Below are positions 46,982 through 53,250 of a stretch of 64,000 bases of DNA, in pieces (positions within the stretch are counted from its first letter, which is position 1; every line of letters starts with the position of its first letter). Origin of the DNA: Candidatus Woesebacteria bacterium RIFCSPLOWO2_01_FULL_44_24b (GTDB taxonomy: Bacteria > Patescibacteriota > Microgenomatia > UBA8517); the NCBI GenBank assembly GCA_001793235.1, contig MGHM01000016.1, forward strand, positions 746 to 64,745, given 5' to 3'. Below the pieces are notes generated by a model, which did not search any database, was not told the origin of the DNA, and saw only the letters and a list, made by a program, of their open reading frames with translations. A program made the position numbers and the translations under genes.

Positions 46982-47752
46982 ATGTCTAAGCGCCACAAGT
47001 TTTTAATTACGTCATTAGTTTTGTCGTTAGGTTTTTTTGGAATTACTTTTTTGGAAAACGAGGACAGGTTAGTGGGGATTGCTGCTTTGTCTTTGGGAAG
47101 TATTATAATGTTTTTCTGGACGTTAAGGGAGGGGATAAAGCGCGATGCCACACTTTTGTGTTTAATTTTGCCACCCCTTTTTACCCTTGGAGTTGGGCTT
47201 TTTTGGTTTTTGTTGCCGTCAACTTTCTATGCAAGACTGCCCATTATTGTCTTATATGGAATAGGGGTATATTCAATAGCGCTTACGGCAAATGTCTTAA
47301 CGGTTTCGGTCCTTAAAAAAATTGCGTTGGCCAGAGCGGCCAAGGGCGTTTCGTTCGTATTGACCCTATTTACGCTGTTTTTATTGTACGACGCAGTGCT
47401 TTCGTTAAAAGCCAGCATTTTTATTGCTTCCTCAGCGGTACTGGTGGCTTCGTTCCCGTTGTTTCTGCAGGGGTTATGGGTAAGCCGAATTACTAAAGAA
47501 GTCGGAAGTGAAATTTTAATATATTCGGGGGTTTTTTCTTATGTGGTCGGTGGAGTGGCGGTACTGATGTATTTTTGGCCTGTGTCGGTGGTTGTGGGGT
47601 CTTTGTTTTTGACTGTTGTGGTATATATTCTTTTGGGGTTGGGACAAGCAAAGATTGAGGCCAGGCTTTTTAGGCAGACGGTAAACGAGTATCTCACAAT
47701 AGGCACAATTGTTTTTTTAATTATGCTTCTGTCGACAAATTGGCACGGATAA
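46982..47752 (+). CDS. polytopic membrane protein
   Basis: 256 aa with about 8 TM helices. Confidence 0.4.
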   Translation: MSKRHKFLITSLVLSLGFFGITFLENEDRLVGIAALSLGSIIMFFWTLREGIKRDATLLCLILPPLFTLGVGLFWFLLPSTFYARLPIIVLYGIGVYSIALTANVLTVSVLKKIALARAAKGVSFVLTLFTLFLLYDAVLSLKASIFIASSAVLVASFPLFLQGLWVSRITKEVGSEILIYSGVFSYVVGGVAVLMYFWPVSVVVGSLFLTVVVYILLGLGQAKIEARLFRQTVNEYLTIGTIVFLIMLLSTNWHG

Positions 47753-48407
47753 CCTCCAAGGGCCTGCCTGCGCAGACAGGGGAGAGGGGTGGCCCGATTA
47801 GCAATATTATAGGCAGGTATTTTCACGCGGGGAGAGGGAGTGTTTTCACGATTCGTTGATAATATTTGATATAGTTGTTAGGTTAACAAAACACACTTGA
47901 AGCGCCCTCCAGAGGAGTAAGGCAGCAGGTTGTTTACTTGCAGCCAGCCTTGCCCGCAATGCTTCGCATAGCGATGCAGGCGGGTCGCTGCGGCTGCTGA
48001 CAGCTTTTTGAGCAGTCATACATAATGTCGTACAATAATACTTTTGCGACGTATATTAATTCAGTGAGGGAAGGGCATTATTTTTTCTTATTATCTGTAT
48101 GCGGCCCACACAGACACCATAAAATCTATTTCTACAGCTAAGACTTCTCTTAATTATGGATCCAGCTACTAAATATCTGTTCCAAATATATAGCGAACAA
48201 ACGAGTTCAAATTTTAAGGATGAAGATACCCGTCTTCGTCGTGAGACAGGCCTTAGAATCGATTTGGTGAAGCCACTTATTAAGTAAATTTTCAGTTTTC
48301 AATTTACAATTATCAATCAATTTCGATGATGAGTAAGCATCGAGTGTGTATAAAAATTGATATATTGATCATTCAATGAAAATTGTTAATTGAGAAATGT
48401 AAATTAT

Positions 48408-48471
48408 ATCAGCCATTGGCTGATGTTTATGTCGCACAATATTGACAAGCTTTATGTCAATAATTAAACTG
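48408..48471 (+). promoter_or_regulatory. palindromic operator-like sites overlapping a putative promoter of the recombinase gene
   Basis: Perfect 18-bp palindrome ATCAGCCAATTGGCTGAT (about 48408-48424). Inverted repeat AATATTGACA-N7-TGTCAATAATT whose left arm contains a TTGACA -35-like hexamer. The ATG at 48477 has no SD, so a leaderless or very short-leader transcript is possible. Confidence 0.3.
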
Positions 48472-48476
48472 ATTTT

Positions 48477-50648
48477 ATGACTACCCCACTTCCTAAACTT
48501 GTGGAGGAATTTTTGGATTACTTGCGTGTTGAGCGAGGCTCCTCTCCCCTAACCCTTAGGAACTACCTCCATTATTTAACCAGGTTCATTGAGTGGCTTG
48601 GTGAGCACAAAATTTCGCAAAATTTAGCCTCAATTTCAGCTGAAAATGTAAGGAAGTACCGCTTGTATTTAAGTAAGCTTGCCTTGTCTCAAAAGACCCA
48701 GGGCTATCATGTAATTGCTCTTCGGTCGTTTTTAAAATGGCTCAATAAAAACGGCTATAAGGCGCTGCCTGCCGAGAACTTGGAACTTCCAAAGATAAAA
48801 GATAGACAAGTATCTTTTTTAAACGGTGAGCAGGTTGACAGGTTGCTTTCGGCTCCTTCTATGAGCTCAATTGTAGGTAAGCGGGACAAGGCGATCTTGG
48901 AAGTTTTGTTTTCAACGGGGCTTAGGGTTTCGGAGTTAACTAAGCTCAACCGCGACAAAATTGACTTGGAACGGCGCGAGTTTGGAGTAGTTGGGAAAGG
49001 GGGGAGAGCAAGGGTAGTATTTCTCTCCTCACGCGCGGCGGAATGGGTGAGCCTTTACTTGGCCGCCCGGCGGGACCACTATTCCCCGCTATTTATTCGC
49101 CACAAGGGCAAAATTGATCCAACAGTGGAGGATGAGAAGATGCGGCTCACTCCTCGCTCGGTCCAGCGGCTTGTAAAAAAATATACAAGAAAAGTAAAAC
49201 TTCCGGTGGATGCTACCCCGCACACGATAAGGCACTGTATTGGTCCAAATACTAGAATTTTCTTAAGTAACTCTATTGACATAGCAAGAGACCTGTATTT
49301 TAGGCAAAACGATATTGAAGCTCGCAGTCTAGGCTTAAATAATTTTTTAGTAAGTAAGAGTAAAGTAATCGGCAAAGAATACCACATAGGCAAAGCGTAT
49401 AGTCTCTGGGCAGATGGGTATGAGCTGGTGTGTTCTAAAAAACACAGAGTTTTTACATTAGCTTTAGAGGATGTTGACGCGGTACAGGTAAATGACTTGA
49501 AAGTTGGGCAATATATTTTGGGCGTGAACAAGGTCTCGTTTAGAGGTACAGCGTTTGTGAAGCCTAAACTGGCACGGCTAATGGGTTATATTTTAGGAGA
49601 CGGCGTTGTCAGTAAGAGCAGGCGCGGAGTTATAATTCATGACAAGGATTTGAGTTTTTTAGAGTTATATCAGAGAATTGTTACAGATGAGTTAAAAACT
49701 CTCTCAAAAATAGAAAAGGCAAAAGGTTCCAACTCATGGATCCTAACTTTTTATTCGGATCAATTTGTTAATTTTCTCCAAAGCGTCGGTATTTTAGGCC
49801 ACGCCAATATAAGGCGTATCCCTGAAAAGCTTATGAATGCTACTGAAGAAGAAATCATAGAGCTACTTGCCGGAATATATGACGCAGAAGGAAATTCCCG
49901 AGGCGACCCAAGATATTTCTCCGCCTCAAAAGAGTTTTTGAAGGATATCCAAATACTTCTTTTGCGATTTGGCATAGATGCTCATTTGCTAGAGCGAAAC
50001 AGAAATGTAAAACTTCCCCAAGGACTTGTTTTTAATCACGACATGTTTACACTTCAAGTTTTGTCCACAAAAGACCAAAAGAACTTTATTAAACTGATTC
50101 CCACTCTAAAGAAAGATGTCCAGGCAAGTGAAGGGTATGGGGAAAAGTTGCCGGTGCAACCACTTCTCCACTCTATTTTTAGGGAAATGCAAAATAAGGA
50201 AAAAGGTCTGGTCCATGCTTTGGAAGTTGAGCTTAATATCAAGTCACTTCGCAATCTAGCGGAAATTGTTCCTGAGAGGAAAACTGTGGGTAAGTTTATT
50301 ACTTTTTTCAAAAATCATGGTTACAAGGGTAAAAAACTGGATTTTCTTAAGAAAATCCATAAAGATAAAAACATAAAGTGGCTTAAGGTCAGAAAAATAA
50401 CCCCAGTTTCCACTTCTGGCCGGTACAGTCTTTTCGACTTTACTCTTTCACCTCATCAGAATTTTATTACAGATGGAATCATAAGCCACAACTCTTACGC
50501 AACGGATTTATTAATAGCAGGGGCGGATTTACGCTCAGTTCAGGAAATGCTTGGCCATAAAAACGTAGCCACTACACAGATTTATACCCATGTCACAAAT
50601 AAACAACTGAAGGCTGTTCATGAACAGTTTCACGGAAGAGGAAAATAG
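48477..50648 (+). CDS. XerC/XerD-family tyrosine recombinase interrupted by a 419-aa intein
   Basis: Exteins: N-terminal core-binding domain ([24 protein letters not shown]), catalytic domain ([15 protein letters not shown], box II PHTIRH | [34 protein letters not shown] with catalytic Tyr). The spliced product is about 304 aa. Confidence 0.85.
49236..50492 (+). mobile_element. intein with LAGLIDADG homing-endonuclease domain
   Basis: Begins with Cys (CIGPNTRIF, block A). Block [12 protein letters not shown]. Two LAGLIDADG motifs ([11 protein letters not shown] and [11 protein letters not shown]). Blocks [27 protein letters not shown] ending in His-Asn. The +1 residue is Ser. Locally AT-rich. 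Confidence 0.85.
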
Positions 50649-50649
50649 T

Positions 50650-53250
50650 TTACTCTTCACTTTTCTCAAGCGCAGTAACTGCTGCCACTTCGTCTCCTCG
50701 GTCGGCAAAGCGCATAAGAATTACGCCCTGGGTGGCCCGGGCCAGCTCCGGAATGTTTCTTATTGGGAGCTTAATGATTTGCCCGTATTTGCTGGTAATT
50801 ACTGCTTGATCCATTCGTTGATTGACCAGAAGCCCGACTTGTAAATCTCCGGTTTTTCCGGTCAAAACCGCGGCTTTGACCCCTTTGCCCGCCCGCTTTT
50901 GGATGGGAAAGCGCTCAATCTGGGTTCTTTTACCTATGCCTTTTTCCGAAATGATAAGAATATCCCGGAATATTTTTTTGCGGCGGTCTGAGGACGCCTC
51001 AATTTTTTTGGAAAAAGTCTCGATGGCGATAACTGTATCATCTTTGGCAACCTTAATGCCGCGGACCCCGGTCGTGGCTCTTCCCATGGCACGCACATCG
51101 CCTTCCGAAAACTTAATGGCCTTGCCCTTTCTGGTGAGCAAGAAAACATGGTCGTCGCCGGAAGTTTTACGGGCTCCAACTAATTTATCGTCCCCGGCGA
51201 GCTTCATCGCAATGAGCCCATTGGAGCGCAAGTTGATAAATTCTTTATATTGGGTCTTTTTAACCACACCGTTTTCGGTTGCGAGAATCAGGTTCGTCGC
51301 TCCGCTTTCGTTGACCGGCACAATCGAGCGCACTTCTTCGCCGGCTTCCAGATTGACAATATTGACTAGCGCCGTCCCTTTGGCCTGCCTTGAACTCTCG
51401 GCCACCTCCCATACTTTGGTTCCAAAAACCCGGCCGTGATTTGTAAAAAACAACAAAGTATCGTGAGTAGAGGCAGTTATCAAGTGCTCAATTTCATCCT
51501 CCTCTTTAGTTGTCATGCCCAAGACCCCCTTCCCTCCTCTTCTTTGGGATTTATAAATGCTATAAGGAACCCTTTTGATGTAGCCGGTTTTTGTAACTGT
51601 AATTATAGTATTGGTTTTCGCTACCAAATCGGCCTCGGAAAACTCCCCGACATTTTGTTTAAATATTTTTGTTTTGCGCTCGTCTCCGTAAATCTCTTTA
51701 AGGTGAGCAAGCTCACTTGCGATAATTTCAAGTACCTTTTTGGGGTTGCGAAGTATGAGGATTAATTTGTCAATCTGCTTTTTAATTTCTTCATACTCTT
51801 TTTCAATTTTCTCGCGCTCGAGTGCCGCCAACCGCCTGAGTTGCATATCAAGAATTGCTGTTGCCTGAATATCTGAGAAACCGAAGCGCTTAATGAGGTT
51901 TGCCTTTGCCACTTCCTGAGTTGCGCTTTTTCTGATGGTGCTAATTACTTCATCCAGGTTATCGAGGGCAATTTTGAGCCCTTCCAAAATGTGGGCACGT
52001 TTCTTGGCGTTTGTAAGCTCATAGAGACTGCGCCTAATGACCACTTTTTGCCTGTGCTTAACGTATTCAGTCAAAATCTGCTTCAGGTTGACTGTATACG
52101 GAGTGCCGTTTACCAATGCGACAAAATTGGCAGGAAAGCTTATCTGAAGTTTTGTGTGCTTATAGAGGTTATTAAGGACCGACTTTGGCCGGCCATCCCG
52201 CTTGAGCTCAATTACAATGCTCATTCCTGCTTTGTCCGACTCGTCCCTCAGGGCTGAAATTCCGTTTAGCTTTTTGTCTCGCACCAGGTCTGCGATGTCG
52301 GTAACCAATTTACTTTTGTTAACTTGATACGGAATTTCTGTGATTTCAATGACCGATTTCCCTTTCTTAGCATCCTTGATTTCGGCAACACCCCGGACGG
52401 TAATCTTGCCACGGCCGGTGGAATATATTTCTTCCATACCTGTTGCGCCGTAAATGGTTCCTGCGGTTGGAAAGTCCGGTCCAGGAATAAGCTCAACCAG
52501 CTCCGAAATTGTGATATCGCTTTCAAAACCGGACTTGATTTGCCCGAGCTCCGTTTCGGTTAACTCTTTTTCGGTTCCTGCTGCAATTAGGTCAATCTTT
52601 TTGATGAAATTTTCCATTTCGGCCTCGAGCACTTGTTGCTCCACCACTGCCCTACCCTTATTGATGGTTGCGACTACACCGTCTACGACTTCGGATAAAT
52701 TGTGCGGAGGGATTTTGGTAGCCATGCCGACAGCGATGCCCTCCGAGCCCATGAGGAGCAGGTTCGGGAGAAGTGCCGGCAGATACACAGGCTCCTTGAG
52801 GGTACTGTCAAAATTATCTAGAAACTCCACCGTGTCTTTATCTATGTCGGCAAGAATGAAGTCGGCAATTTTTGCCAGTTTGACCTCGGTGTAGCGCATG
52901 GCGGCCGCAGGGTCACCGTCAACTGAGCCGAAATTTCCCTGTCCCTTGATGAGTGGGTAGCGCATAGTAAAGTCCTGCGCGAGCCGCACGATTGCGTCAT
53001 AAACCGCAGTATCCGAGTGGGGATGGTACTTACCTAGTACTTCTCCCACAACTTTTGCACTTTTCGAGAACTTGGTGGAGCTTGTGAGCCCCATTATGTG
53101 CATGGCATAAAGGATGCGCCTGTGGACCGGTTTTAGGCCGTCGCGCACGTCCGGAAGGGCTCTCGCCACAATCACGCTCATGGCGTAATCTAAATAACTT
53201 TTTGAAAGCTCAGACGTAATTTCTGTAGGAAGTACCTTACCTAGTTGCAT
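50650..53250 (-). CDS. gyrA: DNA gyrase subunit A (no intein)
   Basis: N-terminal [29 protein letters not shown] with catalytic Tyr region. 866 aa. C-terminal beta-pinwheel repeats. Confidence 0.95.

What the first reader, a model, noticed from the sequence alone, without database searches (positions are those of the whole stretch)
48477..50648. Intein with LAGLIDADG homing endonuclease inserted in the catalytic HxxRH box of a XerC/XerD-type tyrosine recombinase
The 723-aa ORF splits cleanly into Xer-like exteins of 253 and 51 aa and a 419-aa insert. The insert starts with Cys (CIGPNTRIF), carries two LAGLIDADG motifs ([11 protein letters not shown] and [11 protein letters not shown]) and ends in ISHN followed by Ser. 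It lies between HTIRH and SYATDLL, in the box II active-site motif of tyrosine recombinases, and removing it restores a canonical 304-aa recombinase. Inteins are classically found in replication, repair and nucleotide-metabolism proteins (DnaB, DnaE, RecA, GyrB, RNR). I do not recall tyrosine recombinases as standard intein hosts, so this may be an undescribed insertion site. DnaB and GyrA in the same window are intein-free. The gene is preceded by an unusually long AT-rich non-coding region and may itself belong to a mobile or site-specific recombination module.
Basis: partly seen in the sequence, partly recalled or inferred. Interest (0 to 1): 0.85.

Follow-up and report, generated by a model that had tools for sequence, protein, structure and literature searches.

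The report
Homing intein inside a Xer recombinase
The single Xer-type DNA recombinase gene of this candidate-phyla-radiation bacterium is interrupted, inside its catalytic motif, by a self-splicing protein element (an intein) that carries its own homing nuclease; the same element sits at the same site in over a hundred related uncultured microbes, so it is a real and recurrent but conventional selfish element in an unusual host gene.

Summary
ORF 48477-50648 (+) encodes 723 aa: a 253-aa N-extein, a 419-aa intein and a 51-aa C-extein. The intein has Cys1, a block B SxxH, two LAGLIDADG motifs with intact acidic residues, block F, a terminal His-Asn and a +1 Ser. It sits one residue after catalytic Arg-II (HTIRH|SYATDLL).

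Removing it restores one contiguous recombinase domain that aligns end to end with XerD and XerA. The AlphaFold model (pLDDT 91.9) matches the TliVMA, PI-PfuI and PI-SceI inteins.

The same intein at the same site occurs in at least 117 protein clusters and 102 species genomes across the CPR. It also occurs in bins labelled DPANN archaea and in two short recombinases.

Syntenic intein-free orthologues exist at 77-83% extein identity. Presence is patchy (at least 23 changes on the extein tree), and the nuclease is under purifying selection. This fits an active homing intein.

It is a new member of a known kind. I found no paper describing it, though automated annotation already labels some copies.

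The gene is chromosomal, not on a mobile element. A conserved 28-bp dif-like site lies 450 nt upstream.

The parts
48477..50648 (+). Precursor gene: Xer-type tyrosine recombinase interrupted by an intein (723 aa plus stop)
   Evidence: ORF; Pfam and NCBIfam domains. A 100%-identical cluster, P0001, is called as 711 aa from an internal TTG by JGI. Homologues and XerD align from residue 8-9, which favours the ATG at 48477.
48477..49235 (+). N-extein (aa 1-253): SAM-like core-binding domain plus the first part of the catalytic domain, with R150, K174, H249 and R252 (HTIRH box)
   Evidence: Phage_int_SAM_1 at residues 9-91 and Phage_integrase at 114-255; alignment to XerD 1a0p; residue positions.
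49236..50492 (+). Intein (419 aa), class 1, with an embedded LAGLIDADG homing endonuclease. GC is 0.379, against 0.469 for the N-extein.
   Evidence: Intein_splicing and LAGLIDADG_3 matches; AF2 model pLDDT 91.9; Foldseek to TliVMA intein 7qss at 6e-23 and PI-PfuI 1dq3 at 5e-21; GC values.
49236..49262 (+). Intein block A (CIGPNTRIF). Cys1 is the first splicing nucleophile.
   Evidence: C1 and T6 are invariant in the 22-sequence alignment A1, and C1 is at least 98% conserved in 117 homologues.
49416..49460 (+). Intein block B ([15 protein letters not shown]): SxxH variant of TxxH, with His70 invariant
   Evidence: Conservation profile of 117 inteins and invariant H70 in A1.
49569..49610 (+). 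First LAGLIDADG motif ([14 protein letters not shown]), with catalytic Asp122
   Evidence: D122 is invariant; LAGLIDADG_3 match.
49854..49895 (+). Second LAGLIDADG motif ([14 protein letters not shown]), with catalytic Glu218
   Evidence: Y215, D216, A217 and G219 are invariant and E218 is at least 90% conserved. The endonuclease core superposes on I-DmoI with TM 0.65-0.70 normalised by target.
50148..50363 (+). Five-helix subdomain of the intein (about residues 305-376), between the endonuclease core and the C-terminal splicing strands. I infer it to be an extra DNA-binding region.
   Evidence: Helices 308-376 in the AF2 model. The function is an inference by analogy with the extra domains of PI-PfuI and PI-SceI (my own knowledge) and was not tested.
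50421..50492 (+). Intein blocks F and G (RYSLFDFTL ... [11 protein letters not shown]): Asp401-Phe402, penultimate His418 and terminal Asn419
   Evidence: D401, F402, T412, G414, H418 and N419 are invariant. TIGR01443 intein_Cterm gives a weak match of 14.9 bits against a cut-off of 15.6.
50493..50645 (+). C-extein (aa 673-723): +1 Ser673, then YATDLL, LGH (His694) and the nucleophile Tyr703
   Evidence: The joined exteins align to XerD through HVLRH-AFATHLL ... LGH ... IYTH.
48025..48052 (+). Candidate dif-like core site ATGTCGTACAA-TAATAC-TTTTGCGACGT (11-6-11 imperfect palindrome), 450 nt upstream of xer. It is associated with the host gene, not with the intein.
   Evidence: It is a conserved island in otherwise diverged intergenic DNA of syntenic loci. 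It occurs once in the window. A strict pattern hits 55 of 166 xer loci, 53 of them in the same polarity relative to xer, and none in shuffles. It is present upstream of 41 of 60 intein-free loci and 17 of 61 intein-bearing loci. The function is inferred.
48429..48447 (+). Promoter-proximal copy of one arm of that site (ATGTCGCACAAT) fused to a TTGACA -35-like hexamer, 30-48 nt before the xer ATG
   Evidence: GTCGCACAAT.TTGACA is invariant in the window, L081, L082 and L084. There is a promoter-like match TTGACA-17-TAAACT at 48442-48470. A regulatory role is speculation.

Best explanation
This is a canonical class-1 intein carrying an intact two-motif LAGLIDADG homing endonuclease. It is inserted in frame between His253 and Ser of the HxxRH|S(F/Y)AT box of the only Xer-type tyrosine recombinase seen in this CPR (Microgenomates/Woesebacteria-like) chromosome segment.

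The gene is translated as a 723-aa precursor whose active site is split. R150, K174, H249 and R252 lie on the N-extein, and H694 and the nucleophile Y703 lie on the C-extein.

The intein should excise itself in four steps (inferred): Cys1 N-S acyl shift, transesterification to Ser+1, Asn419 cyclisation, and O-N shift. This would ligate a 304-aa XerA-like recombinase and release a 48-kDa endonuclease.

At the DNA level the endonuclease is expected to cut intein-less xer alleles at the conserved box-II coding sequence, so that repair copies the intein in (homing; inferred). This would explain its patchy, partly horizontal spread across the CPR and into archaeal-type XerA and short recombinases.

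Shown here: the anatomy, fold, site conservation, intein-free syntenic orthologues, purifying selection and patchy distribution. Inferred: splicing activity, nuclease activity and its target.
For: Anatomy and profile matches:
- Junction residues and blocks are present and conserved in 117 homologues.
- Pfam Intein_splicing and LAGLIDADG_3 score above their cut-offs, and NCBIfam gives partial matches to the intein portions of intein-containing DnaB, RNR, IF-2, RFC, RtcB and GyrA models.
- The AF2 model has pLDDT 91.9 and pTM 0.91. Its best PDB matches are all intein endonucleases: 7qss (6e-23), 1dq3 (5e-21), 2cw7 and PI-SceI. The core also matches I-DmoI.

Host gene:
- The joined exteins give one uninterrupted Phage_integrase hit. 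They align over their full length with XerD 1a0p (2e-40) and XerA 4a8e (4e-37), with all catalytic residues present.
- The insertion point is identical (RH|C ... (S/T)HN|S/C) in all 117 full-length clusters and in every locus where both junctions could be read. Intein length is 405-430 aa.
- Intein-free orthologues at 77-83% extein identity lie in the same gene neighbourhood.

Mobility and selection:
- At least 23 presence/absence changes occur on an NJ extein tree of 231 sequences.
- In 213 intein-bearing pairs, intein identity exceeds extein identity by more than 5 points, by up to 22.
- Against the closest relative (L081), synonymous sites are saturated (pS about 0.8). pN is only 0.159 for the intein, 0.141 for the endonuclease core and 0.082 for the exteins.
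- Intein GC is 0.379, against 0.469 for the N-extein.
Against: - No experiment exists. Splicing and DNA cleavage are inferred from sequence and a predicted structure.
- Block B has Ser instead of the usual Thr, and the TIGR01443 C-terminal model scores just under its cut-off (14.9 against 15.6 bits).
- No mini-intein or endonuclease-dead copy was seen. The classical homing cycle predicts some should exist, so uniform retention could instead mean selection for another role. My searches were biased towards full-length copies.
- Intein and extein distances are correlated (r = 0.71), so much of the inheritance is vertical.
- The tree test used a biased sample, the top 120 hits of each of two searches.
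Confidence: 0.85

Rival explanations
1. The intein still splices but its endonuclease no longer drives homing. The element is inherited vertically and simply cannot be lost, because imprecise deletion would destroy the recombinase active site.
For: Intein and extein pairwise identities correlate (r = 0.71). Large monophyletic intein-bearing clades of 15-19 sequences exist on the extein tree. The insertion next to catalytic Arg-II makes anything but precise loss lethal for the enzyme.
Against: The catalytic Asp122 and Glu218 and both LAGLIDADG motifs are invariant or nearly so over sequences as low as 33% identical. pN in the endonuclease core is 0.141 with saturated synonymous sites. There are at least 23 presence/absence changes, and 213 pairs where inteins are more alike than their exteins. 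The same intein family also sits in XerA-type and short recombinases.
Confidence: 0.15
2. The intein is domesticated. It is kept because conditional protein splicing (for example redox control through Cys1, or DNA- or partner-dependent splicing) gates the activity of the sole chromosome-dimer resolvase, and the endonuclease domain is retained as a DNA-binding or regulatory module.
For: The full-length architecture is retained uniformly (405-430 aa) in every copy seen, with no mini-inteins. There is purifying selection over the whole intein. The position splits the catalytic residues, so the precursor must be inactive. A Cys is conserved in block B (CSxxH) in addition to Cys1. Regulatory splicing has been argued for other recombination proteins, for example the RadA intein paper PMC11409957, listed but not read in detail.
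Against: Close relatives do well without the intein, at 77-83% extein identity and in the same locus. Patchy distribution and horizontal signal are what a selfish element predicts. Nothing here tests conditionality.
Confidence: 0.1
3. The insert is a permanent, non-splicing domain insertion (a Hint-like plus LAGLIDADG module fused into a recombinase). It would either create a new composite enzyme or inactivate the gene.
For: Only that splicing has not been shown experimentally. Block B is SxxH rather than TxxH.
Against: Every residue needed for the four splicing steps is invariant across more than 100 diverged copies: C1, H70, D401, H418, N419 and +1 S/C. The insert separates Arg-II from the Tyr nucleophile by 419 residues. 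The exteins remain under strong purifying selection, with pN 0.082, which is unexpected for a dead gene.
Confidence: 0.03
4. The ORF is an assembly or binning artefact: a chimeric contig joining a recombinase to an intein from another gene.
For: None found.
Against: The same architecture appears on more than 100 independent contigs from JGI, ENA, NCBI and Logan assemblies, with in-frame junctions at the same codon.
Confidence: 0.01

Closest known systems
Archaeal LAGLIDADG inteins with solved structures: TliVMA/PhoVMA (7qss, 7qst), PI-PfuI (1dq3), PI-TkoII (2cw7); yeast PI-SceI (1vde, 1lws)
   Same: The overall architecture is the same: a Hint splicing domain split by a two-motif LAGLIDADG endonuclease plus an extra helical region. 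These are the best structural matches (E 6e-23 to 2e-12, TM 0.50-0.69), and PI-PfuI is the only PDB hit by sequence. The Cys1 ... HN / +1 nucleophile chemistry is also the same.
   Different: Sequence identity is only 9-17%. The host is a tyrosine recombinase rather than a V-ATPase, ribonucleotide reductase or DNA polymerase. Block B is SxxH. The organisms are CPR bacteria rather than Thermococcales or yeast.
Archaeal RadA/Rad51 intein (representative P0267) and other replication or repair inteins
   Same: This is the nearest relative outside the recombinase-borne family (28% identity, E 4e-28). It too lies in a DNA-recombination protein at a conserved catalytic region, which fits the known bias of inteins towards DNA-metabolism enzymes (PMC4760082).
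   Different: The host fold and insertion site differ. The recombinase-borne inteins form a discrete group: 28 clusters at E <= 1e-30, and every one I checked sits in a Phage_integrase host.
XerA of archaea (Pyrococcus abyssi, 4a8e; NCBIfam NF040815) and the single-recombinase systems XerS/difSL and XerH/difH
   Same: The spliced extein aligns over its full length with XerA and XerD, has R-K-H-R-H-Y, and just reaches the XerA_Arch cut-off (220.2 against 220 bits). A nearly palindromic 28-bp site lies next to the gene. [quoted passage not shown]
   Different: None of those characterised enzymes carries an intein. The CPR site has a 6-bp central region, whereas difSL has 11, and its function is untested. 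The XerC and XerD equivalog cut-offs are not met.
Engineered split-intein recombinases (split Cre, split phiC31 integrase)
   Same: The recombinase is inactive until protein splicing joins two halves (PMC6868429 and PMC3973285, listed). This is the same logic as the natural precursor here.
   Different: Those are synthetic trans-splicing designs using DnaE split inteins at engineered positions. This one is a natural cis-splicing intein with a homing endonuclease.

Membership tests
Intein (class 1, canonical four-step splicing) | Nucleophilic Cys/Ser as first intein residue | tested here: met
   Cys254 (intein Cys1). It is present in all 117 homologous inteins.
Intein (class 1, canonical four-step splicing) | Block B TxxH motif | tested here: met
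   S67-K-K-H70. His70 is invariant, and Ser replaces Thr, a conservative variant; the family consensus is CSPxH.
Intein (class 1, canonical four-step splicing) | Block F acidic/aromatic motif, with penultimate His and terminal Asn in block G | tested here: met
   D401, F402, H418 and N419 are invariant. TIGR01443 scores 14.9 bits, just under its 15.6 cut-off.
Intein (class 1, canonical four-step splicing) | Ser/Thr/Cys as first C-extein residue | tested here: met
   Ser673. Homologues have Ser, or Cys in some Parcubacteria-type copies.
Intein (class 1, canonical four-step splicing) | Hint (horseshoe beta) fold formed by the N- and C-terminal segments | tested here: met
   AF2 pLDDT 91.9, with beta strands at 7-97 and 380-418. 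The top Foldseek hits are intein structures. Pfam Intein_splicing scores 45.9 bits against a cut-off of 35.8.
Intein (class 1, canonical four-step splicing) | In-frame insertion in a conserved host site; removal restores the host protein; intein-free orthologues exist | tested here: met
   The joined extein matches Phage_integrase positions 2-170 of 172 in one stretch. Intein-free syntenic orthologues L082 and L084 read TPHVLRH|SFATDLL and TPHTIRH|SHATDLL.
Intein (class 1, canonical four-step splicing) | Protein splicing activity | not testable with these tools
   Needs expression of the precursor and detection of the ligated exteins.
LAGLIDADG homing endonuclease (monomeric, two-motif) | Two LAGLIDADG helices, each ending in a catalytic Asp/Glu | tested here: met
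   LMGYILGDG (D122) and [10 protein letters not shown] (E218), both conserved. LAGLIDADG_3 matches twice, at 72 bits.
LAGLIDADG homing endonuclease (monomeric, two-motif) | Pseudo-dimeric alpha-beta-beta-alpha-beta-beta-alpha core fold | tested here: met
   The model has helices and strands at 110-287. It superposes on I-DmoI with TM 0.64-0.71 normalised by target and on I-Tsp061I.
LAGLIDADG homing endonuclease (monomeric, two-motif) | Site-specific cleavage of the intein-less allele | not testable with these tools
   Only indirect evidence: purifying selection, and patchy and horizontal distribution.
Tyrosine recombinase, Xer group | Catalytic R-K-H-R-H/W-Y residues in a Phage_integrase fold, plus an N-terminal SAM-like core-binding domain | tested here: met
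   R150, K174, H249, R252, H694 and Y703 in precursor numbering. PF00589 and PF02899 both match.
XerC or XerD (NCBIfam equivalogs TIGR02224, TIGR02225) | Score at or above the curated equivalog cut-off | tested here: not met
   The spliced extein scores 258.3 against 335.15 (XerC) and 253.6 against 329.6 (XerD). It should not be called XerC or XerD.
XerA-type single recombinase (NCBIfam NF040815) | Score at or above the curated cut-off | tested here: inconclusive
   220.2 bits against a cut-off of 220, so borderline. Intein-bearing copies from DPANN-labelled bins score 237-269.
Xer/dif chromosome-dimer resolution system | A cognate 28-31 bp dif site (two inverted arms around a 6-11 bp centre), unique in the chromosome and at the replication terminus | tested here: inconclusive
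   The candidate 11-6-11 site at 48025-48052 occurs once in the window, is conserved, and keeps a fixed polarity upstream of xer in 53 of 55 hit loci. GC skew falls from +0.05 to +0.21 before about 50 kb to about 0 to -0.06 after it, which is compatible with a terminus. Whole-genome skew and binding or recombination were not testable.

The most novel reading that the evidence does not exclude
The intein is more than a parasite. Because it splits the active site of the sole dimer-resolving recombinase, and is kept full-length with an intact nuclease in every lineage sampled, splicing (or the nuclease domain's DNA binding) may have been co-opted. It would then be a post-translational switch coupling Xer/dif recombination to cell state in ultra-small CPR and DPANN symbionts. 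The same allele would also move between bacterial and archaeal hosts that share habitats.
Probability: 0.1. Interest if true: 0.7.

Novelty: new member of a known kind. Interest (0 to 1): 0.45.

Why it matters
- It adds site-specific tyrosine recombinases (Xer/XerA) to the hosts of natural inteins. The insertion is at the most conserved catalytic motif, which fits and extends the rule that inteins target DNA-metabolism enzymes at active sites.
- It gives a ready-made natural example of a recombinase whose activity depends on protein splicing. Synthetic biologists build this artificially with split inteins.
- It provides a family of more than 100 diverged LAGLIDADG enzymes that presumably recognise the same conserved recombinase-coding sequence.
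- The family is spread across the CPR and appears in archaeal-type XerA in DPANN-labelled bins. This makes it a possible marker of gene flow among episymbiotic microbes.
- The xer-linked dif-like site, if real, would define the chromosome-dimer resolution module of a large uncultured bacterial radiation.

Tried and rejected
- **Rfam.** A search of the whole window at gathering thresholds found only one tRNA-Leu. A search of 47700-48520 at E <= 1 found nothing. The long upstream spacer therefore matches no known RNA family.
- **RNA folding.** Folding 47753-48024 on both strands gave z-scores of -1.09 and -0.31, so there is no evidence for a structured RNA.
- **Mobile-element idea.** I rejected it for this window because intein-free relatives keep the same housekeeping neighbours.
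- **Second recombinase.** phmmer of the spliced extein against all ORFs of at least 60 aa in the window found only the gene itself.
- **Literature.** Nine full-text searches and checks of four candidate papers (Izhevsk phage, phiCbK, the 2016 intein census, the Barzel 2011 homing-endonuclease mining paper) turned up no natural recombinase intein. The census supplement is not held.
- **DPANN contigs.** I tried to confirm from neighbouring genes that the DPANN-labelled contigs are archaeal. The neighbours (RadC, HAD hydrolase, rhomboid, zinc ribbons) are not diagnostic.
- **dN/dS.** Proper ratios could not be computed because synonymous sites are saturated even against the closest intein-bearing relative.
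- **Parcubacterial palindromes.** The sites near xer in L050, L052 and L072 (ATTGTGCGAC-N8-GTCGCACAAT) have the arms in the opposite polarity. I therefore do not count them as dif-like sites.
Full report
**1. The observation**

The ORF listing returns a single 723-aa ORF at 48477..50648 on the + strand, with the quoted sequence features. The parts are:
- N-extein: aa 1-253, nt 48477-49235.
- Insert: aa 254-672, nt 49236-50492, starting CIGPNTRIF and ending GIISHN.
- C-extein: aa 673-723, nt 50493-50645, starting SYATDLL.

Pfam places Phage_int_SAM_1 at residues 9-91. It finds a Phage_integrase domain broken into two stretches, two LAGLIDADG_3 repeats and an Intein_splicing domain spanning 295-672, all above gathering cut-offs. 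The feature is real and far beyond chance.

**2. What the insert is**

The 419-aa insert alone matches Intein_splicing (6.8e-12) and LAGLIDADG_3 (4.4e-20). It also matches the intein portions of NCBIfam models for intein-containing RNR, DnaB, Tes, IF-2, RFC, RNA polymerase A'', RtcB, V-ATPase A and GyrA.

I aligned the 117 homologous inteins recovered from the protein database, and made a 22-sequence diverse subset, A1. The invariant or near-invariant positions map onto the intein blocks:

| Block | Residues in this intein |
|---|---|
| A | Cys1, Thr6 |
| B | CSxxH, with His70 invariant; this copy has S67-K-K-H70 |
| C | GYILGDG, Asp122 |
| E | AGxYDAEG, Glu218 |
| F | Asp401-Phe402 |
| G | TDGxxSHN, His418-Asn419 |

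The first C-extein residue is Ser, or Cys in some lineages.

An AlphaFold2 model built on A1 is confident (mean pLDDT 91.9, pTM 0.91). It shows N- and C-terminal beta segments, a central alpha/beta core and a five-helix region at 308-376.

The best Foldseek matches in the PDB are all intein endonucleases: TliVMA 7qss (6.3e-23), PI-PfuI 1dq3 (4.9e-21), PhoVMA 7qst, PI-TkoII 2cw7 and PI-SceI. The core also matches the free-standing LAGLIDADG enzyme I-DmoI. By sequence, PI-PfuI is the only PDB hit (E 0.005).

**3. What the host is**

Joining the exteins gives a 304-aa protein with one uninterrupted Phage_integrase match, profile positions 2-170 of 172. It aligns over its full length with E. coli XerD 1a0p (2.1e-40) and P. 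abyssi XerA 4a8e (4.4e-37).

The catalytic residues in precursor numbering are R150, K174, H249 and R252 before the intein, and H694 and Y703 after it. The intein therefore lies one residue after catalytic Arg-II and separates it from the tyrosine nucleophile.

The spliced protein scores below the XerC and XerD equivalog cut-offs (258 against 335 bits, and 254 against 330). It sits exactly at the XerA_Arch cut-off (220.2 against 220). It is best described as a single XerA-like Xer recombinase. No second recombinase is encoded in the 64-kb window.

**4. Distribution**

A search with the full precursor returned at least 120 clusters of 690-770 aa with the same domain set, at 41-100% identity. 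They come from Woesebacteria, Gottesmanbacteria, Nealsonbacteria and unclassified Patescibacteria. JGI labels some of them 'site-specific recombinase XerD/intein/homing endonuclease'.

In all 117 full-length clusters the insert lies at HxxRH|C ... (S/T)HN|S and is 405-424 aa long.

A scan of one genome per GTDB species with the intein alignment confirmed 102 loci. The 80 retained loci span Microgenomates, many Parcubacteria lineages, Saccharimonadales, Kazan and Peregrinibacteria. Wherever both junctions could be read, the intein sits in a tyrosine recombinase at the same site.

Several hosts fall outside the main CPR Xer group:
- Six loci come from bins labelled Nanoarchaeota, Woesearchaeota or Pacearchaeota. 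I scored the spliced exteins of four of them, and they pass the XerA_Arch cut-off at 237-269 bits. I could not confirm from neighbouring genes that these contigs are archaeal.
- Two loci (L065 and L075) have short recombinases of about 200 aa with only a catalytic domain.
- One copy lies on an IMG/VR contig among small unidirectional ORFs, a KaiC-like ATPase and a DnaD/HTH protein.

An exhaustive HMMER search of 1.84 billion representatives gave 28 clusters at E <= 1e-30. Every one I checked has a Phage_integrase host. The first different host is an archaeal RadA intein at 28% identity. The recombinase-borne inteins are therefore a discrete family.

**5. Evidence for mobility and function**

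The spliced extein finds many intein-free orthologues. The closest (P0121-P0136) are 77-83% identical to the exteins here. That is closer than any intein-bearing homologue except the identical P0001 and P0002, which is 89% identical in the exteins and 74% in the intein.

Two such intein-free genes (L082, L084) lie in the same neighbourhood as the window gene: pseudouridine synthase, Na/H exchanger, a 294-aa ORF, TPR(-), YebC, DUF5656, a long gap, xer and gyrA(-). This is a presence/absence polymorphism at an orthologous chromosomal locus.

Other evidence:
- On an NJ tree of 231 extein sequences, intein presence needs at least 23 state changes.
- Among 6105 intein-bearing pairs, 213 have inteins more than 5 points more similar than their exteins, by up to 22 points. 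This indicates horizontal intein movement, although the overall correlation (r = 0.71) shows much vertical descent.
- Against L081, synonymous sites are saturated (pS about 0.8). pN is 0.082 for the exteins, 0.159 for the whole intein and 0.141 for the endonuclease core, so the nuclease is under purifying selection.
- Intein GC (0.379; GC3 0.363) is lower than N-extein GC (0.469; GC3 0.51).

One weak pattern also appeared. The Ser+1 codon is AGY in 15 of 74 intein-free alleles but in only 3 of 73 intein-bearing ones (Fisher p = 0.0045, not corrected for phylogeny). This could reflect target-site immunity or co-conversion.

**6. Mechanism**

Shown here: a complete, conserved set of splicing and nuclease residues in a confidently predicted intein fold, inserted so that it splits the recombinase active site.

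Inferred:
- The precursor is inactive as a recombinase.
- The intein excises by the standard class-1 route: Cys1 acyl shift, transesterification to Ser+1, Asn419 cyclisation, then O-N shift. This produces a 304-aa Xer and a free endonuclease.
- The endonuclease cuts intein-less alleles in the conserved ...CCNCAY NNN NNN MGN CAY|TCN TTY GCN ACN GAY... region (consensus) and spreads by repair.

Rival readings are listed with their tests in the rival-explanations section: a merely immobile intein, a domesticated conditional switch, and a non-splicing insertion. An assembly artefact is excluded by recurrence on more than 100 independent contigs.

**7. The upstream region**

The 724-nt spacer (47753-48476) is conserved in position in intein-free relatives, at 782-889 nt. 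It matches no Rfam family and shows no significant RNA folding.

Aligning it with L082, L084 and L081 reveals islands of conservation. The strongest is ATGTCGTACAA-TAATAC-TTTTGCGACGT at 48025-48052, an 11-6-11 imperfect palindrome. The evidence for it is:
- It occurs once in the window.
- A strict pattern finds it in 55 of 166 xer loci, 53 of them with the same polarity relative to xer, and never in shuffled sequence.
- It lies 50-1800 nt, occasionally about 2300 nt, upstream of xer in 41 of 60 intein-free loci and 17 of 61 intein-bearing loci that have enough upstream sequence.
- From my own knowledge of E. coli dif (GGTGCGCATAA-TGTATA-TTATGTTAAAT), its inner arm positions (CGCAxAA / TTxTG) and 6-bp centre resemble that site.

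Single-recombinase systems are known to keep dif next to the gene, as with xerS and difSL (PMC5357621).

One arm recurs fused to a TTGACA hexamer 30-48 nt before the xer ATG, and is invariant in four loci.

GC skew is +0.05 to +0.21 up to about 50 kb and about 0 to -0.06 afterwards. Gene orientation flips at the xer/gyrA junction. Both are compatible with a terminus but prove nothing.

I regard this as a candidate dif site of a xer-dif module. It is not established. I found no paper on dif in the CPR.

**8. Comparison and novelty**

The element works like, and passes the sequence and fold tests for, a class-1 LAGLIDADG intein. It is closest in structure to the archaeal VMA and PI-PfuI inteins and closest in sequence to an archaeal RadA intein.

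What is unusual is the host and the site, box II of a tyrosine recombinase, and the breadth of the family across the CPR. Full-text searches, including the main text of the 2016 intein census, found no description. Automated annotation has already flagged copies, however.

I rate it a new member of a known kind, with moderate interest. It conforms to the known preference of inteins for DNA-metabolism enzymes and catalytic motifs (PMC4760082).

Noticed in passing
window 48025-48052 (+); also L082 5459, L084 5464, and many of L001-L166: A 28-bp 11-6-11 imperfect palindrome, ATGTCGTACAA-TAATAC-TTTTGCGACGT, is conserved upstream of xer whether or not the intein is present. It occurs once in the window, keeps a fixed polarity relative to xer (53 of 55 hit loci), and gives no hits in shuffles. 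It is a candidate dif site of a xer-dif module.
   Followed up: partly
window 48429-48447 (+) and 47383-47392 (-): There are two further exact copies of the arm GTCG(C/T)ACAAT. All three exact matches in the 64-kb window lie within 1.1 kb upstream of xer. One is fused to a TTGACA -35-like hexamer just before the ATG and is invariant in four loci, which suggests possible autoregulation.
   Followed up: partly
L050, L052, L072 (45-126 nt upstream of xer): Parcubacteria-type loci carry perfect or near-perfect palindromes ATTGTGCGAC-N8-GTCGCACAAT. They are built from the same 10-nt arm but in the opposite polarity to the Microgenomates site. The meaning is unknown.
   Followed up: no
window 1-64000: GC skew is positive (+0.05 to +0.21) up to about 50 kb and about 0 to -0.06 after it. 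Genes run mostly on the + strand before 50.65 kb and on the - strand after it, and xer and gyrA converge with 1 nt between their stop codons. This is compatible with a replication terminus at the xer locus.
   Followed up: partly
window 47753-48476; L082 5112-6000; L084 5219-6000: Other conserved islands lie in the long spacer. One is TTTTCACGA(T)ATGTTGATAAT(G/A)TTTGATATAGTTG at about window 47840-47876, preceded by a direct repeat of GT(A/G)TTTTCACG at 47817 and 47840. Another is CTTAGAATCGATTTGGTGAAGCC at about 48253-48275, inside a 43-aa ORF at 48157-48288. There is no Rfam match and no significant RNA fold.
   Followed up: partly
L011, L012, L013, L015, L022, L045: The same intein sits at the same site in bins labelled Nanoarchaeota, Woesearchaeota or Pacearchaeota. 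The four exteins I scored pass the archaeal XerA equivalog cut-off, which suggests possible bacterial-archaeal transfer. The neighbouring genes did not settle the domain of these contigs.
   Followed up: partly
L065, L075; proteins P0260-P0263: The intein family also interrupts short tyrosine recombinases of about 200 aa with only a catalytic domain (C-extein SFAI..., YLQ(F/Y)S). One of them comes from a bin labelled Desulfobacterales.
   Followed up: partly
L085 4266-6425 (IMGVR_UViG_3300025015_000021): An intein-bearing Xer-like gene lies on a 94-kb contig classed as viral. It is surrounded by small same-strand ORFs, a KaiC/RecA-like ATPase and a DnaD/HTH protein, so this contig may be a mobile-element vector for the intein. 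L086 on another viral contig has a related intein (27% identity) in a RecA-like ATPase.
   Followed up: partly
Ser+1 codon, window 50493-50495 and the equivalent position in 147 loci: The Ser+1 codon is AGY in 15 of 74 intein-free alleles but only 3 of 73 intein-bearing alleles (Fisher p = 0.0045, not corrected for phylogeny). Eight intein-bearing alleles have Cys (TGY) at +1.
   Followed up: partly
window 48477 vs 48513: The identical database protein P0001 is called as 711 aa, presumably from the TTG at 48513, which follows a GGAGGA Shine-Dalgarno-like sequence. Homology to XerD and to other family members favours the ATG at 48477, which would lie only a few nt after the -10-like hexamer and so may be near-leaderless.
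   Followed up: no
L082 7020-8071 and L084 6971-7234, compared with window 50648-50650: Intein-free relatives have one to three small genes, including a PIN-domain protein in L082, between xer and gyrA. The window has none, and L081 has a 272-aa ORF there. This junction is a variable spot.
   Followed up: no
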